Shown here in pieces: positions 19,983-61,067 of a DNA stretch of 61,198 nt (positions are counted from its first letter, which is position 1; each line of letters opens with the position of its first letter). Position numbers and translations under genes: made by a program. Source of the DNA: Planctomycetota bacterium (GTDB taxonomy: Bacteria; Planctomycetota; UBA11346); the NCBI GenBank assembly GCA_043775355.1, contig JAYVSL010000172.1, forward strand, positions 1 through 61,198, in the 5' to 3' direction. The notes beneath the pieces are model-generated. The model ran no database searches. It had not been told where the DNA came from and was given only the letters and a program-made list of their open reading frames with translations.

Positions 19983-20681
19983 TTATTTCGCGGCTAGGCG
20001 AACGAGCTTATCTTTGCGCTTTTCCTCTTCGGCTAAGCGCAAGATATAGGCCTGAAATTCCGGGTCTTCGCCATCAAGATGGGGAACCATCATGGTGCGG
20101 AAATCTTCCCGACGACACCACTCACGCATGTAATCATCCCAGGTCAGCCACAGGCGACGTGTTTGCCGGCTCATATGCTCTTCATAGACCAACAGATAAG
20201 CACGTTCGAAGAGGGCAACCAATAGGCCAAAGATCAAATATTTACGCTCCAACTGATCTTCGCTCAGCTTGGGTATTTCGAGACTCTGACGAAAGAGATG
20301 AAGATCGGCGTGTTCCAGTACGAGCTTAAGAAAAGTGGAATATTCATCCGACAATCGTTGGAAAACTTCCTCTTCATCGTTCTGGCGGTCTTTGCGCTGT
20401 TCGTAGATAAAGACAATGAGCGCCATCGGCAAGCCGAAGACCGTGACGATATAACTCAGTAATTCCCAAATTTCCATCGTCGTCATTGGCAGCGTCCTCT
20501 GGTGGACGACGAAGCCTGCGCGAAGCGCGGTAAATTCAGCCATTTCATACTCAGCGCACTCATGGGAGAACCGTACTATGACAGCGAATGTGTCCAGCGA
20601 TTTCCTACACCGAAGCGTTTGGTCTTCACTGCGAAAGAGAAACTGAGGACAGCCAAGGCAGCATCGTTTCTTCGTCGTCAT
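19983..20681 (-). CDS. hypothetical membrane-anchored helical protein (start may be 20486)
   Basis: One TM helix (LLSYIVTVFGLPMALIVFIY), then a charged helical domain. The visibly lower GC and AT-rich codons differ from neighbours. The N-terminal 65 aa (CCLGC...C) may or may not be translated. Confidence 0.5.
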   Translation of the reverse strand: MTTKKRCCLGCPQFLFRSEDQTLRCRKSLDTFAVIVRFSHECAEYEMAEFTALRAGFVVHQRTLPMTTMEIWELLSYIVTVFGLPMALIVFIYEQRKDRQNDEEEVFQRLSDEYSTFLKLVLEHADLHLFRQSLEIPKLSEDQLERKYLIFGLLVALFERAYLLVYEEHMSRQTRRLWLTWDDYMREWCRREDFRTMMVPHLDGEDPEFQAYILRLAEEEKRKDKLVRLAAK

Positions 20682-20766
20682 ATCACTTAGTCACCAAGCT
20701 CGTGGCTTTGGTCTTCCTCCGCTGCCCCGTTCCTGCCCTTTAACAAATAGAAGCGGGCTGCGAGCC

Positions 20767-20856
20767 GCATCACATAGCGCGTAGCACATAGCGCGTAGCA
20801 CATAGCGCGCATCACATAGCGCGCATCACATAGCACATAGCGCGTAGCACATAGCG
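20767..20856. repeat. tandem array with about 14-bp period, about 6.5 copies of [CAT/TAG]CACATAGCGCG
   Basis: Read directly: CATCACATAGCGCG TAGCACATAGCGCG TAGCACATAGCGCG CATCACATAGCGCG CATCACATAG CACATAGCGCG TAGCACATAGCGCC. It abuts the transposase fragment. Confidence 0.85.
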
Positions 20857-20858
20857 CC

Positions 20859-21126
20859 GCGATATCCGCGGGAGAATGGCTACGCGGAACGCTTCGTTCG
20901 CTTGCTCAAAGAGAGCCTGCTGCGCAAGTGCCTCTTCCACAGCGAATCAGCGCTGCGGTCAGCGCTGTCTGAATTCCAAATGTATTTCAACAATGAACGA
21001 CCCCATCAAGGCATCGGCAATCGCACCGTGCTTGGTTCCAGCAAGGTGCCAACCGCCTGTAAAATCATGGAAACGTGCTCGGGCACTACATTGATGCCAT
21101 CGAATTTTTCGACGGACTGTGCATAG
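20859..21126 (+). mobile_element. 3' fragment of a DDE (rve / integrase-core) transposase gene
   Basis: The frame reads ...RENGYAERFVRLLKESLLRKCLFHSESALRSALSEFQMYFNNERPHQGIGNRTV..., which is the C-terminal rve signature (NG..ERF...lK.E ... YN.eRPHqglg). The catalytic N-terminal two thirds, the HTH and the inverted repeats are absent. Confidence 0.75.
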
Positions 21127-21458
21127 CAAAGCACGTAAGCGACCAACGTGGCGGGTCGGCGGCATGAAGCATTTCATCGAAATACACGGACGTGGTCACG
21201 GATTCCGTATGTGCATGTGCCACTCGCTGGCGGCGCTACCAAGCGGCACGAAGCCCCAGGTCATCGTTGTCGTACCATCATCCAGCGTGCTCAAGGTCCG
21301 CGTACGGCGCGCGGTGATCTGATCCAAATGGGCAGCGTGAATTCCATGCGGAACCGGGCATATTTTAAACTGCTCCTTGACGGAATTGAATTTCGCAAGG
21401 TCCGATAAACGCACGACGGCGATTTCCGCAGTCGGTTCTGTTCATTTCCGGAGCACCC

Positions 21459-22682
21459 ATGCCTACTGTATTGTTAGTCCAACGGACTTTGGTCCCAGCG
21501 CTGGTGGCAGTTACTGCCTTGACCCTGATGCCGTCCCTGGCGCTGTTGGCTGCGGATGCTCCCGCGGACGAAATCGCCAAATTACGTGCCACGTTGACTG
21601 AGCTTCAAAGTCGCGTTGAAACGCTGGAACAAGATACTTCTCACGATGAGAACCTTGATGTTCCCCGCTTGACCATCAAAGGCTTCGCCGATTTGACGTG
21701 GCGCATGTCGCGTGAACGCCGCGACGGTGTCGACGATGCCAATGACAATCACTTTGCACTCGGTCAGTTCGATCTGTTCTTCTCCTCGCGTTTGACTGAC
21801 AACACCAGCTTTCTTGGTGAAATGGTGGTTGAGACTAAGGATGACGGTTCCACCGGTGTCGATCTCGAACGCGCGATCATCAAATACACCATCAGCGATC
21901 ATTTTAATGTTCAGGCTGGCCGCTTCCATACCACGCTGGGTTACTGGAACGAAACCTTCCATCACGGCGCCTGGCTGCAGACCACCATCGATCGCCCCGC
22001 AGCACTTAACTTTGAAGATGGCGGCGGTGTGTTACCGGTTCACTTGGTCGGTGTATTGGCCAAGAGTCATCATGTCGTCGGCGATATGCTTGGCATCGAT
22101 GGTACCGTCGAAATCGGCAATGGCCGCGGTCCCACCGCTGATCCGCCGCAAGTCATCTATGATGGAAATGACAGCAAGGCCATCAATCTGTCCGTATCGC
22201 TCGCACCATTATCCGTGCCTGGACTGCGCGTCGGTGGCGGCATGTATTTTGATCGCATTCCTGCGTACATTGGCGACGTCAACAACCCTGCGCATAGCGA
22301 TCTGCAAGAACAAGTTCTCAATGGCTATTTAGTCTATCGCGCCCGGCCTTACGAGCTCATCGCTGAATATTACCGCATCGCCCATAAAGCCACCGATGGA
22401 TCTGGTGCGACGGCGGTCAGCGATTCCTACTATGTGCAAGTAGGCTACCAACTCGGGCGCTTCACTCCCTACGCCCGTTACGACACGTTAAGGATCAGCG
22501 ACAGTGATACCTATTTCAGCAGCCAGGACGACACCTCTAAAACGGCCATAGGCATTCGTTACGAGGTCAATGCCTGGGCAGCGCTGAAGCTTCAGGGCAA
22601 TGAAGTGCTGATCCATCCTGCCGGTGGTGGCGCGGATATTCATCGCGATGAACTCGTCATTCAAATCAGTAGCGCGTTCTAA
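21459..22682 (+). CDS. outer-membrane beta-barrel porin with N-terminal coiled coil
   Basis: Signal peptide ending LALLAADA. Coiled coil EIAKLRATLTELQSRVETLEQ. This is followed by alternating-hydrophobicity strands and a C-terminal ...VIQISSAF (terminal Phe typical of OMPs). Confidence 0.7.
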   Translation: MPTVLLVQRTLVPALVAVTALTLMPSLALLAADAPADEIAKLRATLTELQSRVETLEQDTSHDENLDVPRLTIKGFADLTWRMSRERRDGVDDANDNHFALGQFDLFFSSRLTDNTSFLGEMVVETKDDGSTGVDLERAIIKYTISDHFNVQAGRFHTTLGYWNETFHHGAWLQTTIDRPAALNFEDGGGVLPVHLVGVLAKSHHVVGDMLGIDGTVEIGNGRGPTADPPQVIYDGNDSKAINLSVSLAPLSVPGLRVGGGMYFDRIPAYIGDVNNPAHSDLQEQVLNGYLVYRARPYELIAEYYRIAHKATDGSGATAVSDSYYVQVGYQLGRFTPYARYDTLRISDSDTYFSSQDDTSKTAIGIRYEVNAWAALKLQGNEVLIHPAGGGADIHRDELVIQISSAF

Positions 22683-22730
22683 CCCATGCGCCCCACACAC
22701 TATTCCCCATCGGATCGTCAAGGAACCCAC

Positions 22731-23231
22731 ATGAGTCTTAGACGCTCGTCCCACCGTTTGTCCCACCGTTTGTCCCACCGTTTGTCTGCTTGGCTGTTAA
22801 TGAGCGCTCTTTTGCCCGCTTCTGCGGCTGATTATGCGATTGTCGTCAACGCCGCGTCGCCTCTTACGGGACTTTCCTCTTCCGACATGAATCAGATCCT
22901 GAAGGTCGAAAAACAAAGCTGGGATGATGGCAGCAAAATCGTCCTGGTGATGCCCAAGAAGGGTTCCAAAGAAGAAGCCATTCTGTTGACCAAAGTCTAT
23001 CAAACCGACAGTGATGGTCTGACCAAATTCTGGACCGCCGTGGTCTATCAAAACAAGATCACCACGGCGCCAAAATCAGCCCCCGCGAAAGTCGCGCTCA
23101 AGCTCGTCGAGATCAAGGCTGAGGCCATCACGATTGTCGCCGTCGCCGATGTCCCCACTGGCGGCGCGCTCAAGGTGCTGACGCTTGATGGCAAGAAACC
23201 GGGCGACAGTGGCTACGCCCTTAGCGACTGA
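22731..23231 (+). CDS. short periplasmic PBP-like (PstS/phosphate-binding-like) protein
   Basis: The ATG at 22731 is preceded by AAGGA. The signal peptide contains three SHRL repeats. The mature part (YAIVVNAASPLTGLSSSDMNQILKVEKQSWDDG...) resembles the short substrate-binding-like proteins found next to porins and sensors. Confidence 0.65.
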   Translation: MSLRRSSHRLSHRLSHRLSAWLLMSALLPASAADYAIVVNAASPLTGLSSSDMNQILKVEKQSWDDGSKIVLVMPKKGSKEEAILLTKVYQTDSDGLTKFWTAVVYQNKITTAPKSAPAKVALKLVEIKAEAITIVAVADVPTGGALKVLTLDGKKPGDSGYALSD

Positions 23232-25257
23232 ACCCGACGCCAGCGCGACGACAGCCGGCACGGCCGGAGCGATTTCCCCCGCTCGGGTCGGCGGCCGGCG
23301 TTTTCCCGTGCGTCTCAAGATCGCGGTGGCATTGCTGCCGGCACTGTTGCCGTTGCTGGCGGTGGTGGCGGTCGGCTACTGGTCCGGGCGCGGCGCGGCG
23401 CTTACCACCAGCGCCGGCATCGCCGGGCTGATCGCCGACGCTGGCGGACAACAGCTCGGCTCGTTCCTGCTCGCCCGTCGACGGCAGGTCGAACAGTGGA
23501 CGCAGGACGACGTGTACGGCGCGGCCATCGCCTTCGATGCCGTGGGCGAACTGGGCAAGACCTTCACCACCATGCTTGAGCAGGATCACGGCTTTTCCGC
23601 GCTGATCCTCACCGACCCGACGGGCCAGGTGTTGCAGGTCGCAGGCAAGATTCCGCCCTCCGTTATTGGCAAGCCGTGCATGGAATGGCAGCAGCACCAT
23701 GCCGGCGCAGGTAAGCTTGACATCGTCATCACCAGCAGCGCGCTGCTTGGCGGCCGACGAACGCTGGTCTACTGCTTTGACGCTCGTAATGAGGACAAAG
23801 TCGTCGGCACCCTGCTTGCGTTTCTCGATCCCGGCGCGATCGAGCAGCAGGTCGCTGCGTTGTCGCGGCAACTGGCTGGGTATGGTCTTGCCAGCGGCGC
23901 GGGTCTGTTGCTCGACGGCGGTGAACACCAGGTTCTGGCCAGCACCGCAACCACTGCGACTGCGACTGCGACTGCGACTGCGACTGCGACTGCAGCTGCG
24001 ACTGCAGCCGATGCCGAACGCGCGGGACTCGCCTGGCTCGACGCGCAGCGGCCAAGCGGGAGCAGCGTGCTCAACCATCAGCGGCGATTGGTGAGTTTCG
24101 CCGGCATCGCCGATGCAGACTGGCGAGGCGCGACGCCGGTCGTGGCGTCGGCTCCGGCCGCGACGCCGGCGCGTCTCGGCTTGCTGGTGTTGGTGCCGGA
24201 GAGCGAACTGCTCACCGGCGTCCGCCAAGCCCTGTGGCTCAACCTGGCGCTGGCCGCAATCGGCAGCGCGGTGGTCGGCGTGCTGATCCTGATCGCCGCC
24301 GGACGCATCAGTCGCCCAATCAGCTCCACCGCCAAACTGTTGCAGGACATCGCCACCGGCGACGGCGACCTGACTCGTACCCTTGACCTCCGCTCGCGCG
24401 ATGAACTCGGCGACCTTGCCCACTGGTTCAATGCTTTCGTAACCAACCTGCGCGCGATCGTTGGCCGGGTCGGCACCACGGCGCAGGAGCTCGATCGCTC
24501 AGCCAACACGCTGACGGACAACGCCAACACCATGCTTGGCCATGCGCAGGATTCATCGCGTCAAACCGCGACCATGTCGGCCGACCTCGCGCGCGTCAGT
24601 CTGGAGGTCAATGCAGTCGCGCAGGCGATTAGCCAGATCGACCAGTCGATTACCGAGGTGGCCGCCAGCGCCGCCAGCGCCACTGGCGTGACCAGCGAGG
24701 CGGTCGCCGCCGTGGCCAAAGCCAACGCCACCATCGTCAGGCTCGACACCGCGAGCAGCCAAATCGACAAGGTGGTCAAACTGATCGCCACGGTCGCCGA
24801 CGAAACCAATCTGCTGGCGCTCAACGCCACCATCGAAGCCGCACGCGCCGGAGAAGCCGGCCGCGGCTTCGCGGTGGTGGCCTACAACGTCAAGGAACTG
24901 GCGAACACCACCAGTTCATCGACCGCCGAGATCACCGCCAAGGTCGAAGCGATCAAAACCGAGGTGCGGGAGGTGGTCGCAGAGATGGCCGGCATCCGCG
25001 CCATCATTGGACGCATCGACGGCATCAGCCGCACAATCGCCTCCGCGGCCGAAGAACAGTCGACCACCATGCGCGACATCAATGCCCGCCTGAGTGAGGC
25101 GGCGCAAGCCTCGGCGGGAGTGGTGCACAGCGTCGAAGAAGTAACCGGCTCAATCGCCGGCACCACCCTTGGCGCCCGTCAAACCCACACCTCAGCCGAC
25201 GCCCTCACCGGCATGGTCGGCGACCTACGAGCGCTGATCGGGAAATTCCGCTACTGA
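23185..25257 (+). CDS. methyl-accepting chemotaxis protein (2 TM, periplasmic sensor, HAMP, MA domain)
   Basis: HAMP region (RPISSTAKLLQDIATGDGDLTRTLDLRSRDELGDLAHWFN) and signalling hairpin ETNLLALNATIEAARAGEAGRGFAVVA. The true start is probably downstream of the overlap with the previous gene, for example GTG 23308 before TM1. GC3 is markedly higher than in the neighbours. Confidence 0.9.
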   Translation: MMARNRATVATPLATEPDASATTAGTAGAISPARVGGRRFPVRLKIAVALLPALLPLLAVVAVGYWSGRGAALTTSAGIAGLIADAGGQQLGSFLLARRRQVEQWTQDDVYGAAIAFDAVGELGKTFTTMLEQDHGFSALILTDPTGQVLQVAGKIPPSVIGKPCMEWQQHHAGAGKLDIVITSSALLGGRRTLVYCFDARNEDKVVGTLLAFLDPGAIEQQVAALSRQLAGYGLASGAGLLLDGGEHQVLASTATTATATATATATATAAATAADAERAGLAWLDAQRPSGSSVLNHQRRLVSFAGIADADWRGATPVVASAPAATPARLGLLVLVPESELLTGVRQALWLNLALAAIGSAVVGVLILIAAGRISRPISSTAKLLQDIATGDGDLTRTLDLRSRDELGDLAHWFNAFVTNLRAIVGRVGTTAQELDRSANTLTDNANTMLGHAQDSSRQTATMSADLARVSLEVNAVAQAISQIDQSITEVAASAASATGVTSEAVAAVAKANATIVRLDTASSQIDKVVKLIATVADETNLLALNATIEAARAGEAGRGFAVVAYNVKELANTTSSSTAEITAKVEAIKTEVREVVAEMAGIRAIIGRIDGISRTIASAAEEQSTTMRDINARLSEAAQASAGVVHSVEEVTGSIAGTTLGARQTHTSADALTGMVGDLRALIGKFRY

Positions 25258-25303
25258 CAAAATGGAAGCGTGGGCAGATGAATGAATGGGAAAGGCAGTG
25301 TGT

Positions 25304-26107
25304 TTAATTTTTATTCAGGCTCTTTGCGACTACCTCAAGCAGCGAAGTCGTTGTGAATGGTTTGGCCAAACGGGAAAACGACAACACGTCAGACTTGCAC
25401 TGCGTCAGATCGCCAGACATCACGATCAATGCGCTTTGCTGCGCCACTGACAGGTGCGAAAGTTGTTCGATGAAATGCTCGCCACTCATGGCGGGCATCA
25501 GCCAATCCACCAGGATCACGTCTGGGCAGGTGCGTTGTACGGCAGCTATCCCTTCGAGACCGCTGGAACATGCTTCGACCTCGGCTCCGGCTTCCTGCAA
25601 CATGACCACGATGATGTCGCGCAGCATCTCATTATCATCGATCACGAGGATGCGGCGCTGCTTCAAAGACTGCGCCAACTCGGGCACGGGCAGGCCTGAC
25701 TGCAGGTGCGGTACCTGGATTTCCTCCCGGTGAGCGAGGGGCAGACGAATGCGGAAAGTCGCGCCATGCCCGAGCATGCTTTCGACCTGGATAGTTCCGT
25801 GATGACGATGGATGCACGATTCGCACGTTGCCAGGCCAAGCCCCGTCCCTGCGATGTCCGGCTGACCACGCGTTGCACTCGCATAGACGCCCTTGGTCGA
25901 AAAGAAGGGATTGAAAATCTTCGGCAGGTCCTCGGGGTGGATGCCGCGACCGGTATCAGCAATGACGATCTCGACGTGATCCAGTTGGCTTGTGGCATTG
26001 AAGAGAACGCTGCGGACGGATACATAAAGGATGGCGTTGAAAAAATCTAAATGATGTGGGCACATGACCACGCTCCGTGGCCCCGGATGGCGTGGATTCG
26101 ACAGCAA
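25304..26107 (-). CDS. truncated hybrid histidine kinase: HATPase_c plus receiver only (probable gene remnant)
   Basis: ADTGRGIHPEDLPKIFNPFFSTKG...GTGLGLATCESCIHRHHGTIQVES (G1/F/G2 boxes) followed by REC (RILVIDDNEMLRD...VILVDWLMPAMSG). There is no HisKA/H-box or sensor, and no continuing frame upstream. Confidence 0.65.
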   Translation of the reverse strand: MLSNPRHPGPRSVVMCPHHLDFFNAILYVSVRSVLFNATSQLDHVEIVIADTGRGIHPEDLPKIFNPFFSTKGVYASATRGQPDIAGTGLGLATCESCIHRHHGTIQVESMLGHGATFRIRLPLAHREEIQVPHLQSGLPVPELAQSLKQRRILVIDDNEMLRDIIVVMLQEAGAEVEACSSGLEGIAAVQRTCPDVILVDWLMPAMSGEHFIEQLSHLSVAQQSALIVMSGDLTQCKSDVLSFSRLAKPFTTTSLLEVVAKSLNKN

Positions 26108-26415
26108 GGGGCCACGACAGCGTGTGCCTTCATCACCGTTTCCACGGCATCAAATCACCGAAGTCACGAAAAAATGCCGTCTACCAACCGCCCGAATGGC
26201 CGGTTGTCCGGCTATGTCCAACTCACCTCATGCCGAGGGTTTTTTCAGGAAAATCATAACCGGCTGGCCTGATTTTACTCCGCTGCGACTGATCCGAACG
26301 TGGCCTGATTTTACACCGCTACTTACAAGCTCAAAATGAACCTGAATTGCTTAGCGTCCCCGCTCAATTAATCGGTCATCTAGGCCTGCAATAATGTCCT
26401 GATCTGGTCGTGACA

Positions 26416-27189
26416 TTATTCGTCTTTCGGCGCGTACGGCAGTAATAACACCACGCGGCTATTGCCAATATGGGCGGGATTATCCATCGACGGAATGAAA
26501 TCGGCGCGACTGGTCACCTGACGGCACAAACCGGAGCTATAGCCGGCGTCTATAAGACCATCGTAAATTCCCTGCGCACGGCTCAGGCCAAGGTCCATCT
26601 TACGCGGTGCACCCACTTGTGAGGGACCTTTATCGATGTGACCAGTAATCACCAAAGCGCGACGCACGGTTGACAAAACATCCACTAACGACCGCAACAT
26701 GGCGGTGCCAGCTTCTGTGCGAACCGCGCTGCCAGGCATAAAGAAAACACCGCGTTGATCCTCAATCAAATCAATACGCAAGCCGCGTTCACTCAAAGCA
26801 ATTTTGACATTGCCACTGTGTTCCTTGAATGCTGGATCTGTGCGCCGACGTTCTTCCAACAGTAACTGCAGCGTACGTGCCCATTGGAAATCAATGTACT
26901 TCACCGTGAGGTCGTTTTCTTCTGCCTCTTCAGGCTGGGGCGGCGGCTTTCCATCCATCTGCAGCACATTCCGACTCGCAGCGAAATTTACTTTAAACGC
27001 ACCTGGGTTATTGAAGTAAGCGGCAATACCTTGCTTGGTATTCACGTCCAAGCCAATAATCCACATCACCAAAAAGAACGCCATCATCGCGGTCACCAGA
27101 TCCGCGTAAGCCAGCTTCCACGCGCCGCCATGATGACCATGTGCGTGTTTTTTCTTGCGAATAATGATGGGCGGTTGTGCGTCAGCCAT
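26416..27189 (-). CDS. motB: flagellar-type stator protein MotB
   Basis: GGAWKLAYADLVTAMMAFFLVMWIIG (plug/TM with the conserved proton-binding Asp). C-terminal OmpA-like block ITGHIDKGP...LGLSRAQGIYDGLIDAGY...NSRVVLLL. Confidence 0.88.
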   Translation of the reverse strand: MADAQPPIIIRKKKHAHGHHGGAWKLAYADLVTAMMAFFLVMWIIGLDVNTKQGIAAYFNNPGAFKVNFAASRNVLQMDGKPPPQPEEAEENDLTVKYIDFQWARTLQLLLEERRRTDPAFKEHSGNVKIALSERGLRIDLIEDQRGVFFMPGSAVRTEAGTAMLRSLVDVLSTVRRALVITGHIDKGPSQVGAPRKMDLGLSRAQGIYDGLIDAGYSSGLCRQVTSRADFIPSMDNPAHIGNSRVVLLLPYAPKDE

Positions 27190-27320: not shown

Positions 27321-28184
27321 TCATTTCTTACCTCGCTCTTTAATCGCCTTATCCATTTCTGAGAACGTTGGGCGAACCGACGGATCAATATTCCGGCGAG
27401 CAAATTCGAGACTGCTTGATGGAGGATCACCACGTGCCCCACGCGCAATCGCGTGACGAATACAGGTCAAATACATGCCTTCCATGCGAATGCGTTGACT
27501 CAAACCCTTGACCAACGGCGACATCATCACGTAAGCAATCAACACGCCAAGAAAGGTTCCGACCAGGGCGTTACCAATAGCAGCACCGATTTCCGATGCC
27601 TCACCACCGATATGACCCATGGTGATAATAACGCCAAGCACGCAGGCAACGATGCCGATGGCCGGCATGCCGTCAGCGCTAACTTGGAGCGCATCAGGAA
27701 CTTGGTTTTCCTCAGCATGAACGGCATCCAAATCCTGCTCCATCATATCGGCGAGGTCATGTGGCTGAACACCACCGGTAACCAGAATTTTCATGGTATC
27801 ACAGAAAAACTCGACAGCGTGATGGTTGGCCATGAAGCTTTTATTTGCTGACAAAATGGTGCTTTTTTCTGGGTCTTCGATATGGCTTTCAATCGCCAGC
27901 AGACCATCGGTGCGCGCCAAGCTGAAAAGCTTGTAGATCATGATTAAGAGATCTTCGTATTCCTGCTTACCAAATTTTGCCGGTTTCATCAAATGCATAA
28001 TTTGAGCGATCGTTTGTTTCGTTAGCGCCATGCCATTCGAGCCAAGATACATACCAATACCAGCACCGATGATGACGATGTATTCCGTCCACGCGACGAC
28101 AAACACCATCATGCTGCCACCGTGCAATAGGTAGCCAGCAAAGGTACAAGCGAGTCCAAAAGCGATGCCGAAGAAAGTGAACAT
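27321..28184 (-). CDS. motA: flagellar-type stator protein MotA
   Basis: 287 aa, collinear with E. coli MotA. The Arg90/Glu98 equivalents are conserved (SLARTDGLLAIESHIEDPEKS), as are the Pro173 (DGMPAIGIV) and Pro222 (MSPLV) equivalents, and there are 4 TM helices. Confidence 0.93.
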   Translation of the reverse strand: MFTFFGIAFGLACTFAGYLLHGGSMMVFVVAWTEYIVIIGAGIGMYLGSNGMALTKQTIAQIMHLMKPAKFGKQEYEDLLIMIYKLFSLARTDGLLAIESHIEDPEKSTILSANKSFMANHHAVEFFCDTMKILVTGGVQPHDLADMMEQDLDAVHAEENQVPDALQVSADGMPAIGIVACVLGVIITMGHIGGEASEIGAAIGNALVGTFLGVLIAYVMMSPLVKGLSQRIRMEGMYLTCIRHAIARGARGDPPSSSLEFARRNIDPSVRPTFSEMDKAIKERGKK

Positions 28185-28303: not shown

Positions 28304-28675
28304 TCATCTCCGTTCGTCCAAAAAGTGTGCTGGCTGATGCTCAGTCACTGGCAAATAAGCACGCATGGCCATGTCCCCACGTTCTTCTTGTGCGCCCATT
28401 TCAATTTGGAGTTGGCGGTAGCGTGTCAGCTCTGCAGCACTGCTCGCTAAAAGCCTGGCCGTGCAGCGAGCCGTTTCGAGCAGCTGTTCACGAGCGTGTT
28501 TTTCCAGACCACTCAGCGCATCCGCTGTCGGCAATGACGCTAAAAGCTGGGACACTTCTTGAGAGAGACTTTCCGCACGCTCAAAATCGACGGTTTGCTC
28601 TTTAAAAAGCGCGGCCTGCTGACGAAGTAAATTCTGCACAGCTTCATGAAGCTCAATAATGTCGCTGATGTTCAT
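28304..28675 (-). CDS. small cytoplasmic all-helical protein (FlgN-like layout, unverified)
   Basis: 123 aa with no signal peptide and a heptad-like Leu/Gln/Glu pattern. Its start overlaps the upstream stop by 4 nt. Confidence 0.55.
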   Translation of the reverse strand: MNISDIIELHEAVQNLLRQQAALFKEQTVDFERAESLSQEVSQLLASLPTADALSGLEKHAREQLLETARCTARLLASSAAELTRYRQLQIEMGAQEERGDMAMRAYLPVTEHQPAHFLDERR

Positions 28676-29475
28676 GGGCCCACCGCTCCAGCGATATTCA
28701 GCCCCGCGAGTAAGCCGCGAGCAGCCCCAACCAATTCGCTGGTGGCATGATCTTGCGCCAAACGCTCGACCGCCGTGGTCGCTTCCGCTAAAAATTTCAT
28801 ACGTGCTTCGCCGGTCGCTTGGCGCGCTTTTTCAATTAAGAACCATGCTTTTAAATATCGGTAGCGCACTGGCTCACCATCACCGAGCTCGGCCACTTCC
28901 ACCAGCTCAAGTGCTGCAAATCCAGCCGCCACATCAGCGGCCGTCGGAGTCATCACAGCAGCAAGGTCATGGTAACATTCGGCAATGCGTAGTTGGTTGG
29001 TCGCAGCGAGAGACGAGCGTTGCAACGCTTGCGCCGCAGGTCGCGCGGCATCGAGCGTGTCGCGATGGTGCCCGATGACGCGTTCATCGTAGGTTTCCAG
29101 TGCACGTCGGAGATCGAGATGTGCTTGATCACGTTCTCGCAGTGGTTCGCCCAAAGCGGGATTGCTCGGTGGGCTGGTAGCTGGACGTAAATTCTGCCGC
29201 TGATCTAAAAGCTCCCGAATACGTTGGTCGCGTTCACGGACCAACGATTCCAAACGACGCTGCAGACGATCAGCGGCCGTCAACGTCGCTGGGTTTTCAA
29301 CCGTCGGCACCAACGGTTGAACACGCGGCGCCGGATCAAGTGGCGGCGAGACTTCGACGGTGAAAACGACTGACGTAACCATGAGCAGAATAAACGCGCG
29401 CACACGCCTCATTCGCGGCCCAGTAACTTCGCAGGCAGAAAAAATAAACGCGCAAACGGTGGCAATCATTTTCAC
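28672..29475 (-). CDS. secreted or membrane-anchored coiled-coil protein
   Basis: 267 aa. N-terminal hydrophobic segment (RAFILLMVTSVVFTV), a Pro-rich linker, then charged helical repeats (RLESLVRERDQRIRELLDQRQ). It is translationally coupled on both sides. Confidence 0.6.
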   Translation of the reverse strand: MKMIATVCAFIFSACEVTGPRMRRVRAFILLMVTSVVFTVEVSPPLDPAPRVQPLVPTVENPATLTAADRLQRRLESLVRERDQRIRELLDQRQNLRPATSPPSNPALGEPLRERDQAHLDLRRALETYDERVIGHHRDTLDAARPAAQALQRSSLAATNQLRIAECYHDLAAVMTPTAADVAAGFAALELVEVAELGDGEPVRYRYLKAWFLIEKARQATGEARMKFLAEATTAVERLAQDHATSELVGAARGLLAGLNIAGAVGP

Positions 29476-31457
29476 TTTGCCTCCCCATTGAATGCTTTAA
29501 TCGCTTCGCGTAAGCGGCCCTGGTCACGCAAATGACTGCCCAGTAGATTCGCTGCATAATCACGGTCGCGCAGCGAAAGTCCTGGGTCTTCCAAAAGCTC
29601 TCGTAGCGTGGTTTCACCAAGATCATTTTCGCCGCCAAGGATAGCGGCACGTGCTAATCCGAGTCGTGCGGCATGGAGTAAATCTTTCGGTGGACGTTCA
29701 GCGATGGTGCGTTCGTAATGATGAACCGCATCGGCGGCAGCGGCAGAGCGCACGCGACGATCGCGTTGGGCGCGGCGATAATCAGCTTGAGCAATATAGA
29801 ACAATGCTTTGGCTCGAACTGGGCCACTATAACCACCTAAGCGCCCTTCCAGCTCCCCCAACAATTGATCGAGCTGTAATTGCCCAGGTCGTTGATCGGC
29901 AACCGCATCGCTCTTTAGCAAATCCCATAACGCATTGACGGTATCGTCATCACGTTGCAGTTCCGCATAACAGCGGGCAATGTTAATCAGCAGTTCCGCA
30001 TCCAACGGTGACTCGGTAAAATCTTGACGTGCACGAAGAAATGCGAACAGCGCATGCACATGTTTGGGTGGCGTGGCTGCCAGGTGACATTGACCAATGC
30101 GATACGCTGAGGTGGCATAGATAATGGAATTTGCGTCGCCATCGGTCTTGCCATTTTTCCATCGGCGCTGCAGCTCAACGTAAGCTGGCAGCGCTTCAGC
30201 GCTACGATTTTCATGAAAGGCGCATTCTGCCAGGCGGAAAGAAAGAATGTCGTTCGCGCGTCCGCCAGACGCCGTCACCACCAGTTTCAGTTGCGTTTCT
30301 GCTTCGCGCCATCGAGCCGCTTCAAACAGCAAATCACCGAGGTTGAGGCGCGCCACGTGGACGCGCGCAGCGGCAGCAGGAACTTTAGTAAATTCTTCTA
30401 ATAAATTCTGCAACGTGTCGATCGCCGCATCGAGTGCGATCGCATCGTTCTTTGCCAATCCTTGTCGCCGTGCCGCTTCGGCTGCAGCCAGATAGATGTC
30501 TGGCAGATCTGGGTCGCCGACTTCGGCGCGTGAAATATAATTGAGGAAAACACCACGGGCATCCTGGAATTGATCGAGCGCCATCATGGCTTCGCCGACG
30601 CCACGAATGGCACGTCGTACCCACACTTGTACCGCCGCATCCGTGTCGCTGGCGTAGGCATCGGCCAAGCTGCTGAATTGCTTCATCGCCTCCAGCGGAT
30701 GACGAGCGGCGGCTTCGTTTGAGCCCAACAACCACAGCGCCTCGGCTCCTGCGGCATTATGGTTTTTACTGGCGGCATGGTGAAGCGCTCGACCAGCGAG
30801 ATCTTCTAATAGTTCACGATCGCGCGGTTGCAGCGCGCTGTCGAACACCACCAATAAACCATCTTTACCGCCGTCTTCGCGCCAAGCTAAACCAATCTGG
30901 CCAAGCAATCGATCGAGTGCTTCCGCCCACGGTACGTCTTTTAAATGCAGACTTACGGCGCGGCGAGTGGCGACGACTCCGGTATCGTCAATGGAGTGTC
31001 CCAACAACAGTGCCAATTCACGGTAAACCACTTCGGCAGCTTCGCGTTCGATGTTGGCACTCACCAGTGATTCGCCGCCAGCAGTAACTTGAATTGACAA
31101 CTTTTCTTCACCAAAACGAACGGAAAAACGACGGTTTGCTTCGCCTGCATGCGTGCCAACTTCCAACCCATGGTTGGGTCGAACGGCCGTCGGAGCCGTG
31201 GTTGTGTCATTGGTCGCCAGCGCCACACGCACGCGTTCAACAGCTCGGCGCAGCGCGCCGATATCGTCAATCAACGTTCCTTCACCAGGAGCTGGATTTT
31301 CGTTCGCTATTTTTTCAACGACTGCCGCTTTTTGCCCCAACTGCAGTGGCCGTGGTTGTGGCGGCAATGGCGGCGATGGCGGCGATGGCGGCGGGGTCTC
31401 AGCCGCCTGCATGAGCGAAAACAACGTGAACAACGGAACGATCACGGAAATACGCAT
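29472..31457 (-). CDS. periplasmic TPR-repeat protein with N-terminal STN/secretin-N0-like module
   Basis: Signal peptide MRISVIVPLFTLFSLMQAA plus a PSPPSPPLPPQP linker. The module ...VSLHLKDVPWAEALDRLLGQIGLAWREDGGKDGLLVVF resembles STN/PilQ-N0. More than 400 aa of Ala/Leu/Tyr TPR-like helices follow. Confidence 0.7.
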   Translation of the reverse strand: MRISVIVPLFTLFSLMQAAETPPPSPPSPPLPPQPRPLQLGQKAAVVEKIANENPAPGEGTLIDDIGALRRAVERVRVALATNDTTTAPTAVRPNHGLEVGTHAGEANRRFSVRFGEEKLSIQVTAGGESLVSANIEREAAEVVYRELALLLGHSIDDTGVVATRRAVSLHLKDVPWAEALDRLLGQIGLAWREDGGKDGLLVVFDSALQPRDRELLEDLAGRALHHAASKNHNAAGAEALWLLGSNEAAARHPLEAMKQFSSLADAYASDTDAAVQVWVRRAIRGVGEAMMALDQFQDARGVFLNYISRAEVGDPDLPDIYLAAAEAARRQGLAKNDAIALDAAIDTLQNLLEEFTKVPAAAARVHVARLNLGDLLFEAARWREAETQLKLVVTASGGRANDILSFRLAECAFHENRSAEALPAYVELQRRWKNGKTDGDANSIIYATSAYRIGQCHLAATPPKHVHALFAFLRARQDFTESPLDAELLINIARCYAELQRDDDTVNALWDLLKSDAVADQRPGQLQLDQLLGELEGRLGGYSGPVRAKALFYIAQADYRRAQRDRRVRSAAAADAVHHYERTIAERPPKDLLHAARLGLARAAILGGENDLGETTLRELLEDPGLSLRDRDYAANLLGSHLRDQGRLREAIKAFNGEAK

Positions 31458-31459
31458 GT

Positions 31460-33589
31460 TTAATGACCTCCGTGAGCGTCATGCGTCGCGGCTGACGCGG
31501 CGGGCTTGTGATCGTCATGACTTGCCGGAGCCGCATGACTATCAGCGGCCTCATGGCCGTTGGCTGCTGCATGTTTGCTGGCGGTTGCTCGTTCGTGACC
31601 TTGCTGTGACGCCGTGCCCAACATACGCCCCAAGGTCAGATACGCATCTTGAACGGCTTGCTGATTGCGCACCACTTCATCACCAGGACGCGTAAGTCCG
31701 TTGCGATCACGCGGGGCCAGATAACTGTCTTCGTTCGCCAGCAAACGATACACCTGCCGAGTAGCAGCGGGCATGTCACCTAATTCGGTGAGACATACCG
31801 CGTAATCGAGAAAAATTCGCGGATCATCAAATAGACCATGACCAGTTTCTGCCAAAGTAGCAAATTCATCCGCCGCTTGATGAAAAGCACCTTTCGCTCT
31901 GAAATGGCGCCCTAATGCCAAAGCAATTTCCGCTTCGTGTCCGGGATACCGAGCTTTCAGTCGCCCCATAAACAGGACGCCCTTGGCCACCTCCGTCGCA
32001 TCCTGCGCCGCCAACTGCGCGACCGCAGCTTTATAATCATTAGCGAAACTATTGCTGGGCGTCAGTGCCGCTTCGCGCTGAGTCTTCAGCTCACTAGACA
32101 AACCGTTAATGGCGTTCACCACCATGCCCAGCGTGGTGGCACAGATAGCGAGAAATAATACGGCGGCGACTAACAGCCAACGAGCACCTTTTAATTCCGC
32201 CGGAGCCATCACTGGCACGCCCAGCGTTATGGTAGGGCCACCTCTGGTTGCCGCAGAATTACCGCTGATTAAACCGCTCGCTGGCATGGCATCCATGGTC
32301 GCTTTGGCATTACCAGCCTGTTCCAATAATTTATCGATTTCGCCTTCGTGTTTCGCCAGCGCGTCGCTAATTTTTTGAGTATTGGGTGCGCCAGTGGCAT
32401 TGGCGAGTTGCTTAACCAGCGCATCGATATCGCCCTGATCAATCATCGGCGCTTCGCCATGCTCACTGATCACACCAACCTGACGATCAACCAGCGCATC
32501 TAAATCATCCGCACTCAATGCCAACGTCGGCCCAGGCCCTGACGGCATCACCTCCATCATGGGAGCAATGATGGTCGCCGCACTCGCGTTTGACGTTGTC
32601 GTGCCTGGTTTTTGTGATTGCGCCGCTACTGCCACGGCTGTCGTTGGTACGCTTGGAACCGCACTCGCGGTTTGTTTTGACGTGCCTGGCTTGGCGGTGG
32701 TTTTAGCTCCTAAATCTGCCAACAATTTATCGATGTCATCCTGACCGAGCGGACCACTCTGATTATCGTCTGGATTCGCTTGTGCCTTCGCATTGGCCGC
32801 TTCCTGAACCGAATCCAACATCTCTGTAATCGATTCGCGTTTCTTACGCTTGGTCGATCCCATCGCTGGCGCAGGGCTCGGCGTCGTTTGATTCAGCAAG
32901 GCGTCTATCGCATCTTGATCGAGCGCTTTTCCAGGCGCTGACGCGGCCGCTTTGTTCGCCGTTGGAGCAGGCGACTGCACCTGATTGATCAACGCATCAA
33001 TGTCATCTTGTCCCAGCGAGCCAGAAGACGATGCCGCCGCCTTCGGCGCTGCGGCAACCGCTTTGGACACTGGCGCACTGGCCTGTACCTGATTGATCAG
33101 CGCATCAATATCATCTTGTCCCAGCGAGCCAGAAGACGATGCCGCCGCCTTCGGCGCTGCGGCAACCGCTTTGGCCACTGGCGCACTGGCCTGCACCTGA
33201 TTGATCAGCGCATCGATTTCATCTTGCCCCATGGCACCGGAGGCCGCAGCCACGGGCGCAGGTTTCGGCGCTGCGGCAACCGCTTTGGCCACTGGCGCAC
33301 TGGCCTGTACCTGATTGATCAGCGCATCGATTTCATCTTGCCCCATGGCGCCAGAGGGCGCTGCCACCGGTTTGGCCACCACTGGAACCGCCTGAGTGGT
33401 TGGTGCACTCGCCTGCGTTAGGTTAATCAGTGCATCAATATCGTCTTGTCCCAACGCTCCCTGAGGCCCTGCTGGCGCCTTCACCGGTGTGGTGCCTTGC
33501 GACGGCGCAGGCGACGGAGCCGCCCCCGAAGCCTGATTGATCAGCGCGTCGATGTCATCTTGCGACATGGAGTTAGGATCGTTTGCCAT
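31460..33589 (-). CDS. single-pass membrane protein: cytoplasmic array of about 10 FliM-type EIDAL (CheY-binding-like) peptides, one TM helix, periplasmic TPR-like domain, His-rich tail
   Basis: The motif xQD[DE]IDALI/LN occurs at residues 9, 47, 83, 121, 157, 193, 224 and 282, with degenerate copies at 359, 384 and 415. The TM helix is WLLVAAVLFLAICATTLGMVV (about residues 470-492) after KGAR. The stop lies 2 nt from the next start. Confidence 0.8.
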   Translation of the reverse strand: MANDPNSMSQDDIDALINQASGAAPSPAPSQGTTPVKAPAGPQGALGQDDIDALINLTQASAPTTQAVPVVAKPVAAPSGAMGQDEIDALINQVQASAPVAKAVAAAPKPAPVAAASGAMGQDEIDALINQVQASAPVAKAVAAAPKAAASSSGSLGQDDIDALINQVQASAPVSKAVAAAPKAAASSSGSLGQDDIDALINQVQSPAPTANKAAASAPGKALDQDAIDALLNQTTPSPAPAMGSTKRKKRESITEMLDSVQEAANAKAQANPDDNQSGPLGQDDIDKLLADLGAKTTAKPGTSKQTASAVPSVPTTAVAVAAQSQKPGTTTSNASAATIIAPMMEVMPSGPGPTLALSADDLDALVDRQVGVISEHGEAPMIDQGDIDALVKQLANATGAPNTQKISDALAKHEGEIDKLLEQAGNAKATMDAMPASGLISGNSAATRGGPTITLGVPVMAPAELKGARWLLVAAVLFLAICATTLGMVVNAINGLSSELKTQREAALTPSNSFANDYKAAVAQLAAQDATEVAKGVLFMGRLKARYPGHEAEIALALGRHFRAKGAFHQAADEFATLAETGHGLFDDPRIFLDYAVCLTELGDMPAATRQVYRLLANEDSYLAPRDRNGLTRPGDEVVRNQQAVQDAYLTLGRMLGTASQQGHERATASKHAAANGHEAADSHAAPASHDDHKPAASAATHDAHGGH
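33003..33446. repeat. in-frame tandem repeats of 108/108/114/108 bp inside the EIDAL-array gene
   Basis: Units start at 33003, 33111, 33219 and 33333 (TCATCTTG...). Units 1 and 2 differ at only about 4 of 108 positions. Confidence 0.9.
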
Positions 33590-60591: not shown

Positions 60592-61067
60592 ACAATCTTC
60601 TTGAGACTAACTTCCAAACAAAACTTTCCGATTTCAGAGGCGAAAGATACCACCAAACATGGGACTGCTTTGTTCTGTGCGGTAATATAACTGCGGCCGG
60701 TAACGATCTTCGGCAAACCAATCTCGAATTTATAGCCTTTCTGTACTAAGCGATTCTTGGCATCGCCGGCGATGATGTTGGTCAACTCACCGACACCGTC
60801 GACCACGCCTGAAGTGATGCTGGTGAAATCTTCGCCAACGAATTTGCCGACCACTTTAATGGCAACCGCTTCGGGAAAATTGAGCACCACCGCGCCGGTG
60901 GCCTCACCACCAAGACCAATGATACCACTCACGCCATAGGTGTCTTCGCCATCGCCCTTCAAATACACCCGATCACGTGTCGGCGTCATCCCCGCCATGG
61001 TCGTAAAGGTATGGGTCACCGCTTCGATGAAGGGGTTGATGTAGTCCACATTGATGCCATGGCTCAT
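60588..61067 (-). CDS. cheX: CheX-type CheY-P phosphatase (CheC/CheX/FliY family)
   Basis: The internal ATG at 61067 gives 159 aa starting MSHGINVDYINPFIEAVTHTF. There is a single active-site motif D-x3-E-x2-N-x21-P (VVDGVGELTNIIAG...IGLP), as in CheX. The stop overlaps the kinase start. Confidence 0.8.
   Translation of the reverse strand: MSHGINVDYINPFIEAVTHTFTTMAGMTPTRDRVYLKGDGEDTYGVSGIIGLGGEATGAVVLNFPEAVAIKVVGKFVGEDFTSITSGVVDGVGELTNIIAGDAKNRLVQKGYKFEIGLPKIVTGRSYITAQNKAVPCLVVSFASEIGKFCLEVSLKKIV

What the first reader, a model, noticed from the sequence alone, without database searches (positions are those of the whole stretch)
32315..33589. About ten tandem FliM-type CheY-binding (LSQxEIDALL-like) peptides in one cytoplasmic domain
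The N-terminal 425 residues contain xQD[DE]IDALINQ at residues 9, 47, 83, 121, 157 and 193. Variants are DQDAIDALLNQ (224), GQDDIDKLLA (282), SADDLDALVD (359), DQGDIDALVK (384) and EGEIDKLLE (415). They are separated by Ala/Pro/Ser-rich linkers of about 25-30 residues. The conserved N-terminal peptide of FliM/FliY (LSQxEIDALL) is the established docking site for phosphorylated CheY, and normally there is one copy per protein. An array of 8-11 copies tethered to the membrane by a single TM helix (about nt 32114-32182) would be a high-avidity CheY-P sink, concentrator or scaffold. I know of no described protein with this architecture.
Basis: partly seen in the sequence, partly recalled or inferred. 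Interest (0 to 1): 0.85.

Follow-up and report, generated by a model that had tools for sequence, protein, structure and literature searches.

The report
Membrane-tethered array of CheY-docking (EIDAL) peptides
A planctomycete inner-membrane protein carries eleven copies of the short peptide that flagellar switch proteins use to capture the chemotaxis signal protein CheY. It is encoded next to flagellar stator genes, which suggests an undescribed way of holding response regulators at the motor; no binding has been tested.

Summary
ORF 31460-33589 (-) encodes 709 aa with 11 copies of x-Q-[DE]-[DE]-I-D-[AK]-L-[LIV] in its first 425 residues; shuffles give a mean of 0.03. These are followed by one TM helix, a periplasmic 3-TPR domain and a His-rich tail.

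About 100 homologues exist, all unannotated and from Planctomycetota MAGs. They carry 3-11 copies. The family consensus, GPL[GDS]QDDIDAL[LVI], matches the FliM/FliY N-terminal "EIDAL" peptide.

The gene is always followed by a periplasmic STN+TPR protein and two small proteins. In this clade flagellar-type motA-motB follow directly. In other clades a receiver-domain protein lies upstream and a histidine kinase downstream.

A profile of the repeat finds 366 array-bearing protein clusters among 1.84 billion. They include FliM, FliY and CheZ, with arrays at the terminus where each normally has one CheY-binding peptide. They also include FliL, FlcA-like TPR proteins and FimV/HubP.

Best reading: a multivalent, membrane-tethered dock for a phosphorylated CheY-type receiver, on a stator-associated envelope scaffold. 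FlhG, which also binds EIDAL, is the main rival partner. Binding is untested. I rate it a new variant of a known kind, interest about 0.7.

The parts
31460..33589 (-). Whole gene: 709-aa bitopic inner-membrane protein (P0001). Cytoplasmic motif array, one TM helix, periplasmic TPR domain, His-rich tail.
   Evidence: ORF list. About 97 homologues plus 20 more representatives. AF2 model.
32315..33589 (-). Cytoplasmic N-terminal region (aa 1-425) with 11 EIDAL-type helices separated by disordered Ala/Pro/Ser linkers of about 25-30 aa.
   Evidence: Regex and shuffle test. In AF2 each motif is a 10-13-residue helix with block-mean pLDDT of about 60-85, and the linkers are below 50.
33539..33562 (-). 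Motif copy 1 (aa 10-17, SQDDIDALI). It sits at the extreme N-terminus, as in FliM.
   Evidence: FliM residues 6-22 align to the motif profile.
33425..33448 (-). Motif copy 2 (aa 48-55).
33317..33340 (-). Motif copy 3 (aa 84-91).
33203..33226 (-). Motif copy 4 (aa 122-129).
33095..33118 (-). Motif copy 5 (aa 158-165).
32987..33010 (-). Motif copy 6 (aa 194-201).
32894..32917 (-). Motif copy 7 (aa 225-232, DQDAIDALL).
32720..32743 (-). Motif copy 8 (aa 283-290, GQDDIDKLL). Positionally conserved in the whole family.
32489..32512 (-). Motif copy 9 (aa 360-367, SADDLDALV). Membrane-proximal and positionally conserved; L358 and S359 are invariant.
32414..32437 (-). Motif copy 10 (aa 385-392, DQGDIDALV). 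The most conserved copy; I383, Q385, D387, I388, D389 and L391 are invariant in 27 sequences.
32324..32347 (-). Motif copy 11 (aa 415-422, EGEIDKLL). A degenerate copy that lacks the Q.
32975..33345 (-). 108-nt (36-aa) tandem DNA repeat, 3.4 copies, 90% matches. It marks recent expansion of the array.
   Evidence: TRF. Near-identical proteins differ by one unit: 679 vs 713 aa, 10 vs 11 copies.
32114..32182 (-). Single transmembrane helix (aa about 470-492), preceded by KGAR. Orientation is N-in.
   Evidence: Hydropathy. AF2 helix 463-506. There is no N-terminal signal peptide.
31562..32047 (-). Periplasmic all-helical 3-TPR-like domain (aa 515-676).
   Evidence: AF2 pLDDT above 90. Foldseek best hits are PcrH/SycD/YbgF TPR domains, TMt 0.6-0.76. 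Weak Pfam TPR_16/TPR_6 matches.
31463..31561 (-). His-rich C-terminal tail ending in HGGH. The ending is conserved in most homologues.
   Evidence: Alignment A1.
29472..31457 (-). Co-operonic partner, 661 aa. Signal peptide, beta-rich STN-type N-domain, then a TPR superhelix of about 11 repeats. Its start lies 2 nt after the array gene's stop.
   Evidence: Pfam STN and TPR. AF2 mean pLDDT 82. Immediately downstream of the array gene in all 13 distinct loci examined.
28672..29475 (-). 267-aa predicted exported helical protein with no known domain. It overlaps the previous gene by 4 nt.
   Evidence: Conserved after the STN/TPR gene.
28304..28675 (-). 123-aa protein with no known domain. It overlaps the previous gene by 4 nt.
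   Evidence: An equivalent gene of 111-131 aa is present in L001, L003, L004 and L006-L009.
27321..28184 (-). MotA, flagellar-type stator subunit.
   Evidence: Pfam MotA_N and MotA_ExbB. TIGR03818 MotA1 289.6 bits, against a cut-off of 303.8. Adjacent to the module in the window, L006, L007, L008 and L015.
26416..27189 (-). MotB (plug plus OmpA-like domain).

Best explanation
The gene encodes a bitopic inner-membrane protein. Its 425-residue cytoplasmic N-terminus is a disordered tether carrying 11 short amphipathic helices of the FliM/FliY 'EIDAL' type. Most likely each helix is a docking site for the alpha4-beta5-alpha5 face of a phosphorylated CheY-type receiver domain. One chain could then hold many response-regulator molecules at the membrane.

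The periplasmic 3-TPR domain probably binds the co-translated periplasmic STN-TPR protein and the two small partners. Together they would form an envelope scaffold that, in this clade, is encoded with the flagellar stator MotA/MotB.

The net effect would be a multivalent buffer or concentrator of CheY~P (or of the module's own response regulator) beside the stator ring and C-ring.

Shown here: the sequence anatomy, topology, conservation, synteny, and the occurrence of the same arrays in FliM, FliY, CheZ, FliL and FlcA-like proteins.

Inferred: that the helices bind a receiver domain, that the TPR domains pair with each other, and that the complex sits at the flagellar motor.
For: (1) Eleven copies are observed where 0.03 are expected by chance.

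(2) Across 634 copies in the homologues P0002-P0097, position 0 is Q in 82%, +3 is I in 90%, +4 is D in 98%, +6 is L in 89%, and -2 is L in 64%. That is the FliM LSQxEIDALL pattern. Copy 1 sits at residues 8-17, as in FliM.

(3) The family-only motif profile ranks FliM residues 6-22 first among 177,635 PDB sequences. The NCBIfam FliY model hits an array protein through its N-terminal positions 4-40 alone.

(4) AF2 gives isolated helices in disordered linkers, the expected form of a docking peptide.

(5) The profile search of 1.84 billion representatives finds 366 array proteins. Among them:
- FliM with 5 N-terminal copies (P0103).
- FliY with 3-5 N-terminal copies (P0176, P0227).
- CheZ-like phosphatases with 5-6 C-terminal copies and the FQDITxQQ motif, which I recognise from memory as the CheZ catalytic signature (P0177, P0192).
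These are the termini where those proteins carry their single CheY-binding peptide.

(6) Arrays also sit on stator-associated membrane proteins. A 21-member cluster contains the FliL-domain protein P0130. Three proteins match FlcA_CTERM. This family is next to motAB in 5 loci.

(7) A receiver-domain gene lies immediately upstream in 6 of about 10 loci, and a HisKA kinase lies downstream in 3.
Against: No binding was measured or modelled; the tools do not allow complex prediction.

The co-encoded receiver protein is closer to NtrC/FixJ/Spo0F receivers than to CheY, and it is absent from this window and its closest relatives.

motAB adjacency is limited to the clade with at least 45% identity to the window protein.

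There are no flagellar switch or che genes adjacent to the gene. The MCP nearby lies in a roughly 6-kb insert that the closest relatives lack.

The EIDAL motif also binds FlhG, and arrays occur in FimV/HubP proteins.

The motif profile also matches paxillin LD peptides almost as well as FliM, so a short acidic amphipathic helix is not by itself specific.

The TPR folds match only generic TPR structures.
Confidence: 0.5

Rival explanations
1. The arrays dock the MinD-type ATPase FlhG, or another ParA/MinD-like ATPase, rather than CheY. The protein would then be a membrane landmark that controls flagellar number or placement, as HubP/FimV does.
For: The FliM EIDAL motif is reported as necessary and sufficient for FlhG binding (bioRxiv 10.1101/2022.04.21.489128). 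In Desulfobacterales the array-bearing FliL-like gene directly follows flhG (a ParA/MinD-family gene) and fliA (L013). Three array proteins match FimV_core and two match FimV_Cterm. HubP is reported to interact with FlhG.
Against: No ParA/MinD gene lies within 10 kb of the array gene in any of the family loci examined. The conserved neighbours are instead a receiver protein and a kinase. Arrays on CheZ-like phosphatases make sense for CheY but have no known link to FlhG.
Confidence: 0.2
2. The helices are a generic LD-like docking motif for some other partner, for example the cytoplasmic domain of MotA, the C-terminal domain of the co-encoded receiver protein, or its 98-aa companion. The resemblance to FliM-N would then be convergent.
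For: Paxillin LD peptides score nearly as well as FliM against the motif profile, and a paxillin was hit in the homologue search. Many array proteins (clusters P0112, P0101, P0105) have no recognisable chemotaxis domain. The three membrane-proximal copies have distinct, positionally conserved flanks and may be structural.
Against: The Q at position 0 and the L at -2 are conserved as in FliM and are absent from LD motifs. The arrays recur on FliM, FliY and CheZ at their known CheY-binding termini.
Confidence: 0.17
3. The region is a low-complexity spacer produced by repeat expansion. The motif would have no specific binding function.
For: A recent 108-nt tandem duplication. Copy number varies between near-identical proteins. 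The linkers are Ala/Pro-rich and disordered.
Against: The motif residues are nearly invariant (D 98%, I 90%) across 634 copies in proteins as little as 30% identical overall. The linkers change freely in length and composition, from Ala/Pro-rich to acidic. That is purifying selection on the helix itself.
Confidence: 0.03

Closest known systems
FliM / FliY N-terminal CheY-P-binding peptide (LSQxEIDALL, 'EIDAL motif')
   Same: Same consensus at the L, S/G, Q, acidic, I, D, A, L, L positions. The first copy lies at the extreme N-terminus. It is a short helix in a disordered segment.
   Different: Eleven copies instead of one. The carrier is a membrane protein with a periplasmic TPR domain, with no CheC-like or FliN/SpoA domain. 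Binding is not tested.
CheZ C-terminal CheY-binding peptide
   Same: A short acidic amphipathic helix on a flexible tether that captures CheY. CheZ-like proteins with 5-6 copies of the same motif as here exist (P0177, P0192).
   Different: This protein has no phosphatase domain, and its array is N-terminal.
Campylobacter PflB/PflA, and spirochete FlcA, periplasmic stator scaffolds
   Same: A pair made of an inner-membrane-anchored TPR protein and a periplasmic protein with a beta-rich N-domain plus a long TPR superhelix. PflAB scaffolds stator complexes together with FliL (PMC12222027). Here the pair is encoded next to motAB. Other array proteins match FlcA_CTERM.
   Different: No detectable sequence homology to PflA, PflB or FlcA. 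The folds match only generic TPRs. I know of no cytoplasmic EIDAL array on PflB (my knowledge, not checked here). Location at the motor is not shown.
FliL
   Same: A single-pass membrane protein associated with the stators. A 21-member cluster of array proteins contains a FliL-domain protein (P0130) with 5-14-copy N-terminal cytoplasmic arrays across the cluster. The design principle is the same.
   Different: The periplasmic domain here is TPR, not FliL.
FimV / HubP polar landmark proteins
   Same: A single-pass membrane protein with a long repeat-rich disordered cytoplasmic region and a TPR-like module. Some FimV-family proteins carry the same motif arrays.
   Different: No LysM domain and no FimV core or C-terminal domain. 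The array is N-terminal and the TPR domain is periplasmic, the reverse of the FimV/HubP arrangement as I know it (my knowledge).
Paxillin LD motifs (eukaryotic)
   Same: Several short acidic Leu-rich helices (LDxLLxxL) separated by disordered linkers form a multivalent adaptor. They give near-equal profile scores.
   Different: Unrelated lineage and partners. LD motifs lack the conserved Q and have L where this motif has I.

Membership tests
EIDAL-type (FliM-N) CheY-docking motif | Sequence consensus L-S-Q-x-E-I-D-A-L-L | tested here: met
   Family consensus over 634 copies is L-[GDS]-Q-D-D-I-D-A-L-[LVI]. FliM residues 6-22 are the top PDB hit of the family profile. The N-terminal segment of the NCBIfam FliY model matches array proteins.
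EIDAL-type (FliM-N) CheY-docking motif | Short helix in a flexible, otherwise disordered segment | tested here: met
   In AF2 each motif is a helix of 10-13 residues (block-mean pLDDT about 60-85) and the linkers have pLDDT below 50.
EIDAL-type (FliM-N) CheY-docking motif | Phosphorylation-enhanced binding to the alpha4-beta5-alpha5 face of CheY | not testable with these tools
   Complex prediction is restricted to single chains. No biochemistry is available.
FliM/FliY switch proteins | CheC-like middle domain and FliN/SpoA C-terminal domain | tested here: not met
   No Pfam or NCBIfam hit to FliM, CheC or FliMN_C even at E up to 10. The protein is therefore not a FliM/FliY family member.
PflB/PflA- or FlcA-type periplasmic stator scaffold | Membrane-anchored or periplasmic TPR proteins | tested here: met
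   AF2 and Foldseek give a 3-TPR periplasmic domain. The partner has a beta-rich N-domain and a TPR superhelix.
PflB/PflA- or FlcA-type periplasmic stator scaffold | Sequence or specific structural homology to PflA, PflB or FlcA | tested here: not met
   No NCBIfam FlcA hit for this protein. PDB sequence searches are empty. Foldseek returns only generic TPR matches.
PflB/PflA- or FlcA-type periplasmic stator scaffold | Genetic or physical association with MotA/MotB | tested here: inconclusive
   motA-motB lie directly downstream in the window, L006, L007, L008 and L015, but not in L001, L003, L004 or L009. Physical association is not testable here.
FimV/HubP polar landmark | Periplasmic LysM domain, FimV core and FimV C-terminal domain | tested here: not met
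   None of these domains was detected. The array is N-terminal and cytoplasmic, and the TPR domain is periplasmic.
TPR superfamily | Tandem helix-turn-helix repeats forming a right-handed superhelix | tested here: met
   Foldseek TMt 0.6-0.76 to PcrH, SycD and YbgF. Weak Pfam TPR_16/TPR_6 matches.

The most novel reading that the evidence does not exclude
EIDAL arrays mark a widespread and so far undescribed design. Periplasmic stator-scaffold proteins (this planctomycete TPR family, array-bearing FliL proteins, FlcA-like TPR proteins) would carry multivalent cytoplasmic docks for CheY~P. Response-regulator control, or a large local CheY~P reservoir, would then sit at the stator ring itself rather than only on the C-ring switch.
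Probability: 0.3. Interest if true: 0.85.

Novelty: new variant of a known kind. Interest (0 to 1): 0.7.

Why it matters
CheY~P is thought to act on the motor through one peptide per FliM or FliY subunit. A membrane protein with 3-11 such peptides per chain, encoded with the stator genes, would change the local CheY~P binding capacity at the motor. If it assembles around the stators it could offer many more sites. It offers a concrete, testable handle on how motors in poorly studied phyla tune sensitivity, speed or stopping.

The wider census is a finding in its own right. 366 clusters carry such arrays, including FliM, FliY, CheZ, FliL, FlcA-like and FimV/HubP proteins. This shows that multivalency of this docking peptide is a recurrent evolutionary solution. 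I could not find it described in the searched literature.

Tried and rejected
- Pfam and NCBIfam scans of the protein gave no significant family.
- A PDB sequence search gave nothing meaningful.
- The genome-contig scan with the full-length alignment was saturated by motif patterns (600-stretch limit). It returned only one true family locus. It did, however, turn up other array-bearing proteins.
- The first metagenome attempt failed because the alignment was too diverse. The second returned only 7 loci.
- Promoter and terminator scans were at chance level and say nothing about operon limits.
- Foldseek of both AF2 models returned only generic TPR folds, so structure gives no support for specific PflA/PflB/FlcA homology.
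- I looked for the conserved upstream receiver gene and its 98-aa partner in the window. They are absent. The receiver protein at 58895-59746 is not their orthologue. No stand-alone CheY is encoded in the window.
- My guess that the 98-aa protein is STAS-like, and that the receiver protein's C-terminal half is RsbW-like, got no Pfam support. I dropped it.
- The nearby MCP and HATPase+REC genes looked like supporting context. They lie in a roughly 6-kb insert absent from the closest relatives, so I do not count them.
- Taxonomy below phylum level could not be obtained.
Full report
**1. What is in the sequence**

The finding lies in ORF 31460..33589 on the minus strand, which encodes 709 aa. A regex finds 11 copies of x-[QD]-[DE]-[DE/A]-[IL]-D-[AK]-L-[LIV], starting at residues 10, 48, 84, 122, 158, 194, 225, 283, 360, 385 and 415. 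Nine of them fit a strict Q-containing form.

Shuffling the 425-residue region 5000 times gives a mean of 0.03 matches and never more than 2. The other roughly 17,000 residues encoded in the window contain 5 loose matches.

The central copies are carried on a 108-nt DNA unit repeated 3.4 times at 90% identity, at 32975-33345. Proteins in one 90%-identity cluster differ by exactly one unit: 679 vs 713 aa, 10 vs 11 copies. The array therefore expands and contracts by tandem duplication.

The strongest hydrophobic segment starts near residue 470. There is no N-terminal signal peptide, and the residues just before the helix are KGAR. The 425-residue array should therefore be cytoplasmic and the C-terminus periplasmic. 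This is inferred from the positive-inside rule and from the length of the N-terminal segment.

**2. Structure**

I ran AlphaFold2 with a 27-sequence family alignment. Every motif comes out as an isolated helix of 10-13 residues, with block-mean pLDDT of about 60-85, set between linkers with pLDDT below 50. One long helix spans residues 463-506. A confident all-helical domain covers 515-676, with pLDDT above 90.

Foldseek against the PDB matches that domain only to generic three-repeat TPR modules: PcrH, SycD and the YbgF TPR, with TM-scores of 0.6-0.76 on the target. The last 33 residues are His-rich and end in HGGH, an ending shared by most homologues.

**3. The family**

A word-indexed search of 5.8 billion proteins found about 97 homologues. 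All are unannotated or 'hypothetical'. Where a name exists, they come from Planctomycetota metagenome-assembled genomes. The exhaustive profile search added 20 more representatives.

All have the same plan: N-terminal motif copies, one TM helix, and a C-terminal domain. Near-full-length members have 3-10 copies by the regex, with a median of 7; the window protein and the P0325-type variants have 11.

Over 634 copies the consensus is G-P-L-[GDS]-Q-D-D-I-D-A-L-[LVI]-x-[QE]-L. D is present in 98% of copies, I in 90%, L in 89% and Q in 82%.

The linkers change freely between relatives. They are Ala/Pro-rich here and acidic in the relative at locus L003. Selection therefore acts on the helix, not on the spacer.

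Copy 1 always sits at residues 8-17 of the protein. The three membrane-proximal copies have distinctive flanks that are conserved in position, and copy 10 (MIDQGDIDALVKQL) is almost invariant.

**4. Is it the FliM-type motif?**

The consensus coincides with LSQxEIDALL. The literature describes this N-terminal 'EIDAL' motif as the CheY-binding site of FliM, present also in FliY (PMC6946799).

I searched a profile built only from this family's repeats against all 177,635 distinct PDB sequences. Its first hit was FliM residues 6-22, LSQAEIDALLNGDSDTK. The E-value of 0.16 is not significant on its own, because the match covers only 17 residues. Ranks 2 and 3 were paxillin LD peptides, a reminder that short acidic helices resemble one another.

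The stronger evidence is comparative. The same profile, run against 1.84 billion representative proteins, finds 366 with E of 0.001 or better, 115 at 1e-10 or better, and 22 at 1e-30 or better. Some have up to 22 copies per protein. I masked the arrays and clustered the top hits, then scanned the clusters against Pfam and NCBIfam. They include:

- FliM with five N-terminal copies (P0103).
- FliY (CheC plus FliN-C domains) with 3-5 N-terminal copies (P0176, P0227).
- CheZ-like proteins with 5-6 C-terminal copies (P0177, P0192). Their Pfam CheZ scores are below the curated cut-off. They carry the motif FQDITxQQ, which I recognise from memory as the CheZ catalytic signature.
- A 21-member cluster of single-pass proteins with N-terminal arrays; the member scanned, P0130, scores above the Pfam FliL cut-off.
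- A 16-member cluster with arrays, a TM helix and a large TPR region. Three of the 71 scanned array proteins match the C-terminal model of the spirochete collar protein FlcA.
- Three FimV/HubP-family proteins.

In FliM, FliY and CheZ the arrays sit at the terminus that normally carries the single CheY-binding peptide. This is the best available argument that the repeats are multiplied CheY docks.

**5. Genomic context**

In the window the gene is followed by three tightly packed genes, with a 2-nt gap and then two 4-nt overlaps:

- A 661-aa protein with a signal peptide, an STN domain and TPRs.
- A 267-aa exported helical protein.
- A 123-aa protein.

After 119 nt come MotA and MotB. MotA scores 289.6 bits against TIGR03818, the flagellar MotA1 model, whose cut-off is 303.8. 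MotB has the plug and OmpA-like domains.

AF2 of the STN/TPR protein (mean pLDDT 82) shows a beta-rich N-terminal domain followed by a TPR superhelix of about 11 repeats. Foldseek again gives only generic TPR matches.

Across 13 distinct related loci, the array gene is always followed by the STN/TPR gene, and by the 267-aa gene wherever the contig extends far enough. motA-motB follow directly in the window, L006, L007, L008 and L015. That is the clade with at least 45% identity to the window protein.

A 239-aa receiver-domain protein and a 98-aa protein lie immediately upstream in L001, L003, L004, L008, L009 and L010. A HisKA kinase lies downstream in L003, L004 and L020. L008 has both the receiver pair and motAB.

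The window and its two closest relatives lack the receiver pair. That receiver is closer to NtrC/FixJ/Spo0F receivers than to CheY. One relative has fliW and csrA 9 kb away, which suggests a flagellated lineage.

The MCP and the HATPase+REC gene downstream of motB in the window lie in a roughly 6-kb insert. The gene that follows motB in L006 and L008 is found at 19989-20486 in the window. I therefore do not use them as context.

**6. How it most likely works**

Shown here:

- A bitopic protein with a disordered cytoplasmic region bearing 11 conserved EIDAL-type helices.
- A periplasmic TPR domain.
- Obligate co-occurrence with a periplasmic STN-TPR protein.
- Frequent linkage to two-component genes and, in this clade, to flagellar stator genes.

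Inferred:

- Each helix binds the alpha4-beta5-alpha5 face of a phosphorylated CheY-type receiver. This could be the chemotaxis CheY, the module's own response regulator, or both.
- The TPR domains of the two large proteins pair in the periplasm. This would parallel PflA-PflB in Campylobacter, which scaffold the stators together with FliL (PMC12222027).
- The assembly sits beside the stators.

A flexible 425-residue region is long enough to reach the nearby C-ring. Depending on affinities and off-rates, the array would either raise the local CheY~P concentration at the switch or buffer it as a sink. These data cannot tell the two apart. I put 0.5 on this combined reading.

**7. Rivals**

FlhG is the main rival, at 0.2. 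The EIDAL motif is reported as necessary and sufficient for FlhG binding. The Desulfobacterales array-bearing FliL-like gene directly follows flhG and fliA. Arrays also occur in FimV/HubP proteins. Against this, no ParA/MinD-type gene lies near any locus of this family, and the arrays on CheZ argue for CheY.

A different partner with only convergent resemblance to FliM-N gets 0.17. A functionless low-complexity spacer gets 0.03. It is contradicted by near-invariant motif residues set in freely varying linkers.

**8. Comparison with known systems, and novelty**

The motif class is known. The protein is not a FliM or FliY family member, because it lacks the CheC-like and FliN domains. It is not a FimV/HubP member, because it lacks the LysM and FimV domains. 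It shows no detectable homology to PflA, PflB or FlcA.

It does work like several of these. The peptide is that of FliM/FliY. The paired TPR architecture and the stator linkage recall PflAB and FlcA. The tethered multivalent adaptor recalls HubP or paxillin.

Eight full-text searches found no description of tandem EIDAL arrays or of this family. That library omits most subscription journals.

I rate it a new variant of a known kind. It is real, conserved and testable, but the partner is unproven. Interest 0.7.

Noticed in passing
window 31463-31561 (-), aa 677-709 of the array protein: A periplasmic His-rich tail (7 His in 33 residues) ends in HGGH. A GGH or GHH ending is conserved in most homologues. 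It may be a metal-binding or sorting signal.
   Followed up: no
window 25304-26107 (-): A 267-aa ORF with a TTG start has HATPase_c and REC domains but no HisKA/dimerisation domain. It looks like a truncated hybrid histidine kinase. No remnant of the missing part was found upstream.
   Followed up: partly
window about 20500-26400: This is a roughly 6-kb insert relative to the closest relatives. The 167-aa gene that directly follows motB in L006 and L008 is at 19989-20486 (-) here. The truncated kinase, an MCP (23185-25257), a 181-aa ORF and a porin-O/P-like gene lie in between.
   Followed up: partly
window 57297-61193 (-): A signalling cluster: CheX phosphatase (60588-61193), HisKA/HATPase kinase (59716-60591), a 283-aa REC protein (58895-59746) and a hybrid kinase with two REC domains (57297-58898). 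The REC protein is not the orthologue of the receiver gene that accompanies the array family elsewhere.
   Followed up: partly
window 54817-56391 (-): A Ser/Thr protein kinase with a weak N-terminal DUF4388 match carries one isolated EIDAL-like sequence, SLAQGEIDRLFGNG.
   Followed up: no
L013 9995-11752 and L014 9992-11854 (Desulfobacterales MAGs): Single-pass proteins with 5-6 EIDAL copies and a weak FliL-like C-terminal domain (PF03748, E 0.012 for the L013 protein). In L013, where I scanned the neighbours, the gene sits in a flagellar cluster directly after flhG (ParA/MinD family) and fliA and before a FliK-like gene. Related representatives form a cluster whose scanned member P0130 scores above the Pfam FliL cut-off.
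   Followed up: partly
L012 9374-13435 (Nitrospiraceae MAG): A 1353-aa protein with the same plan on a larger scale: an N-terminal EIDAL array, a TM helix and a large periplasmic TPR region. A histidine kinase and a receiver gene lie just downstream. It appears to belong with a 16-member cluster of similar length and plan (not tested directly). Three of the 71 scanned array proteins match FlcA_CTERM.
   Followed up: partly
L011 9941-12256 (Planctomycetota chromosome OY763323.1); P0099, P0101, P0102, P0108: A soluble family of about 750 aa with up to 10 N-terminal EIDAL copies, a long coiled coil and a conserved C-terminal domain of unknown function. The gene lies between a LysM-protein gene and a gene with a weak, sub-threshold HEAT-repeat match.
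   Followed up: no
P0100 (Desulfovibrio MAG protein that a source names CheA): A 681-aa protein with seven near-identical MSLDDIDALLD units and a coiled-coil tail. No CheA domain is listed for it in the precomputed Pfam column. The name is probably an annotation artefact caused by the motif.
   Followed up: no
loci L001, L003, L004, L008, L009, L010, upstream of the array gene: A conserved pair: a 239-aa protein (REC domain plus a roughly 120-aa C-terminal domain with no Pfam match) and a 98-aa protein with no Pfam match. The two are fused into one 324-aa protein in L004.
   Followed up: partly
window 33008-33421 (+): A 137-aa ORF on the opposite strand repeats the peptide 'RRCRRLRRCGNRFGHWRTGL'. 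It is a mirror artefact of the tandem repeat, not a gene.
   Followed up: yes
window 23185-25257 (+): The MCP contains a Thr-Ala run, TATTATATATATATATAAATAA, in its periplasmic or linker region.
   Followed up: no
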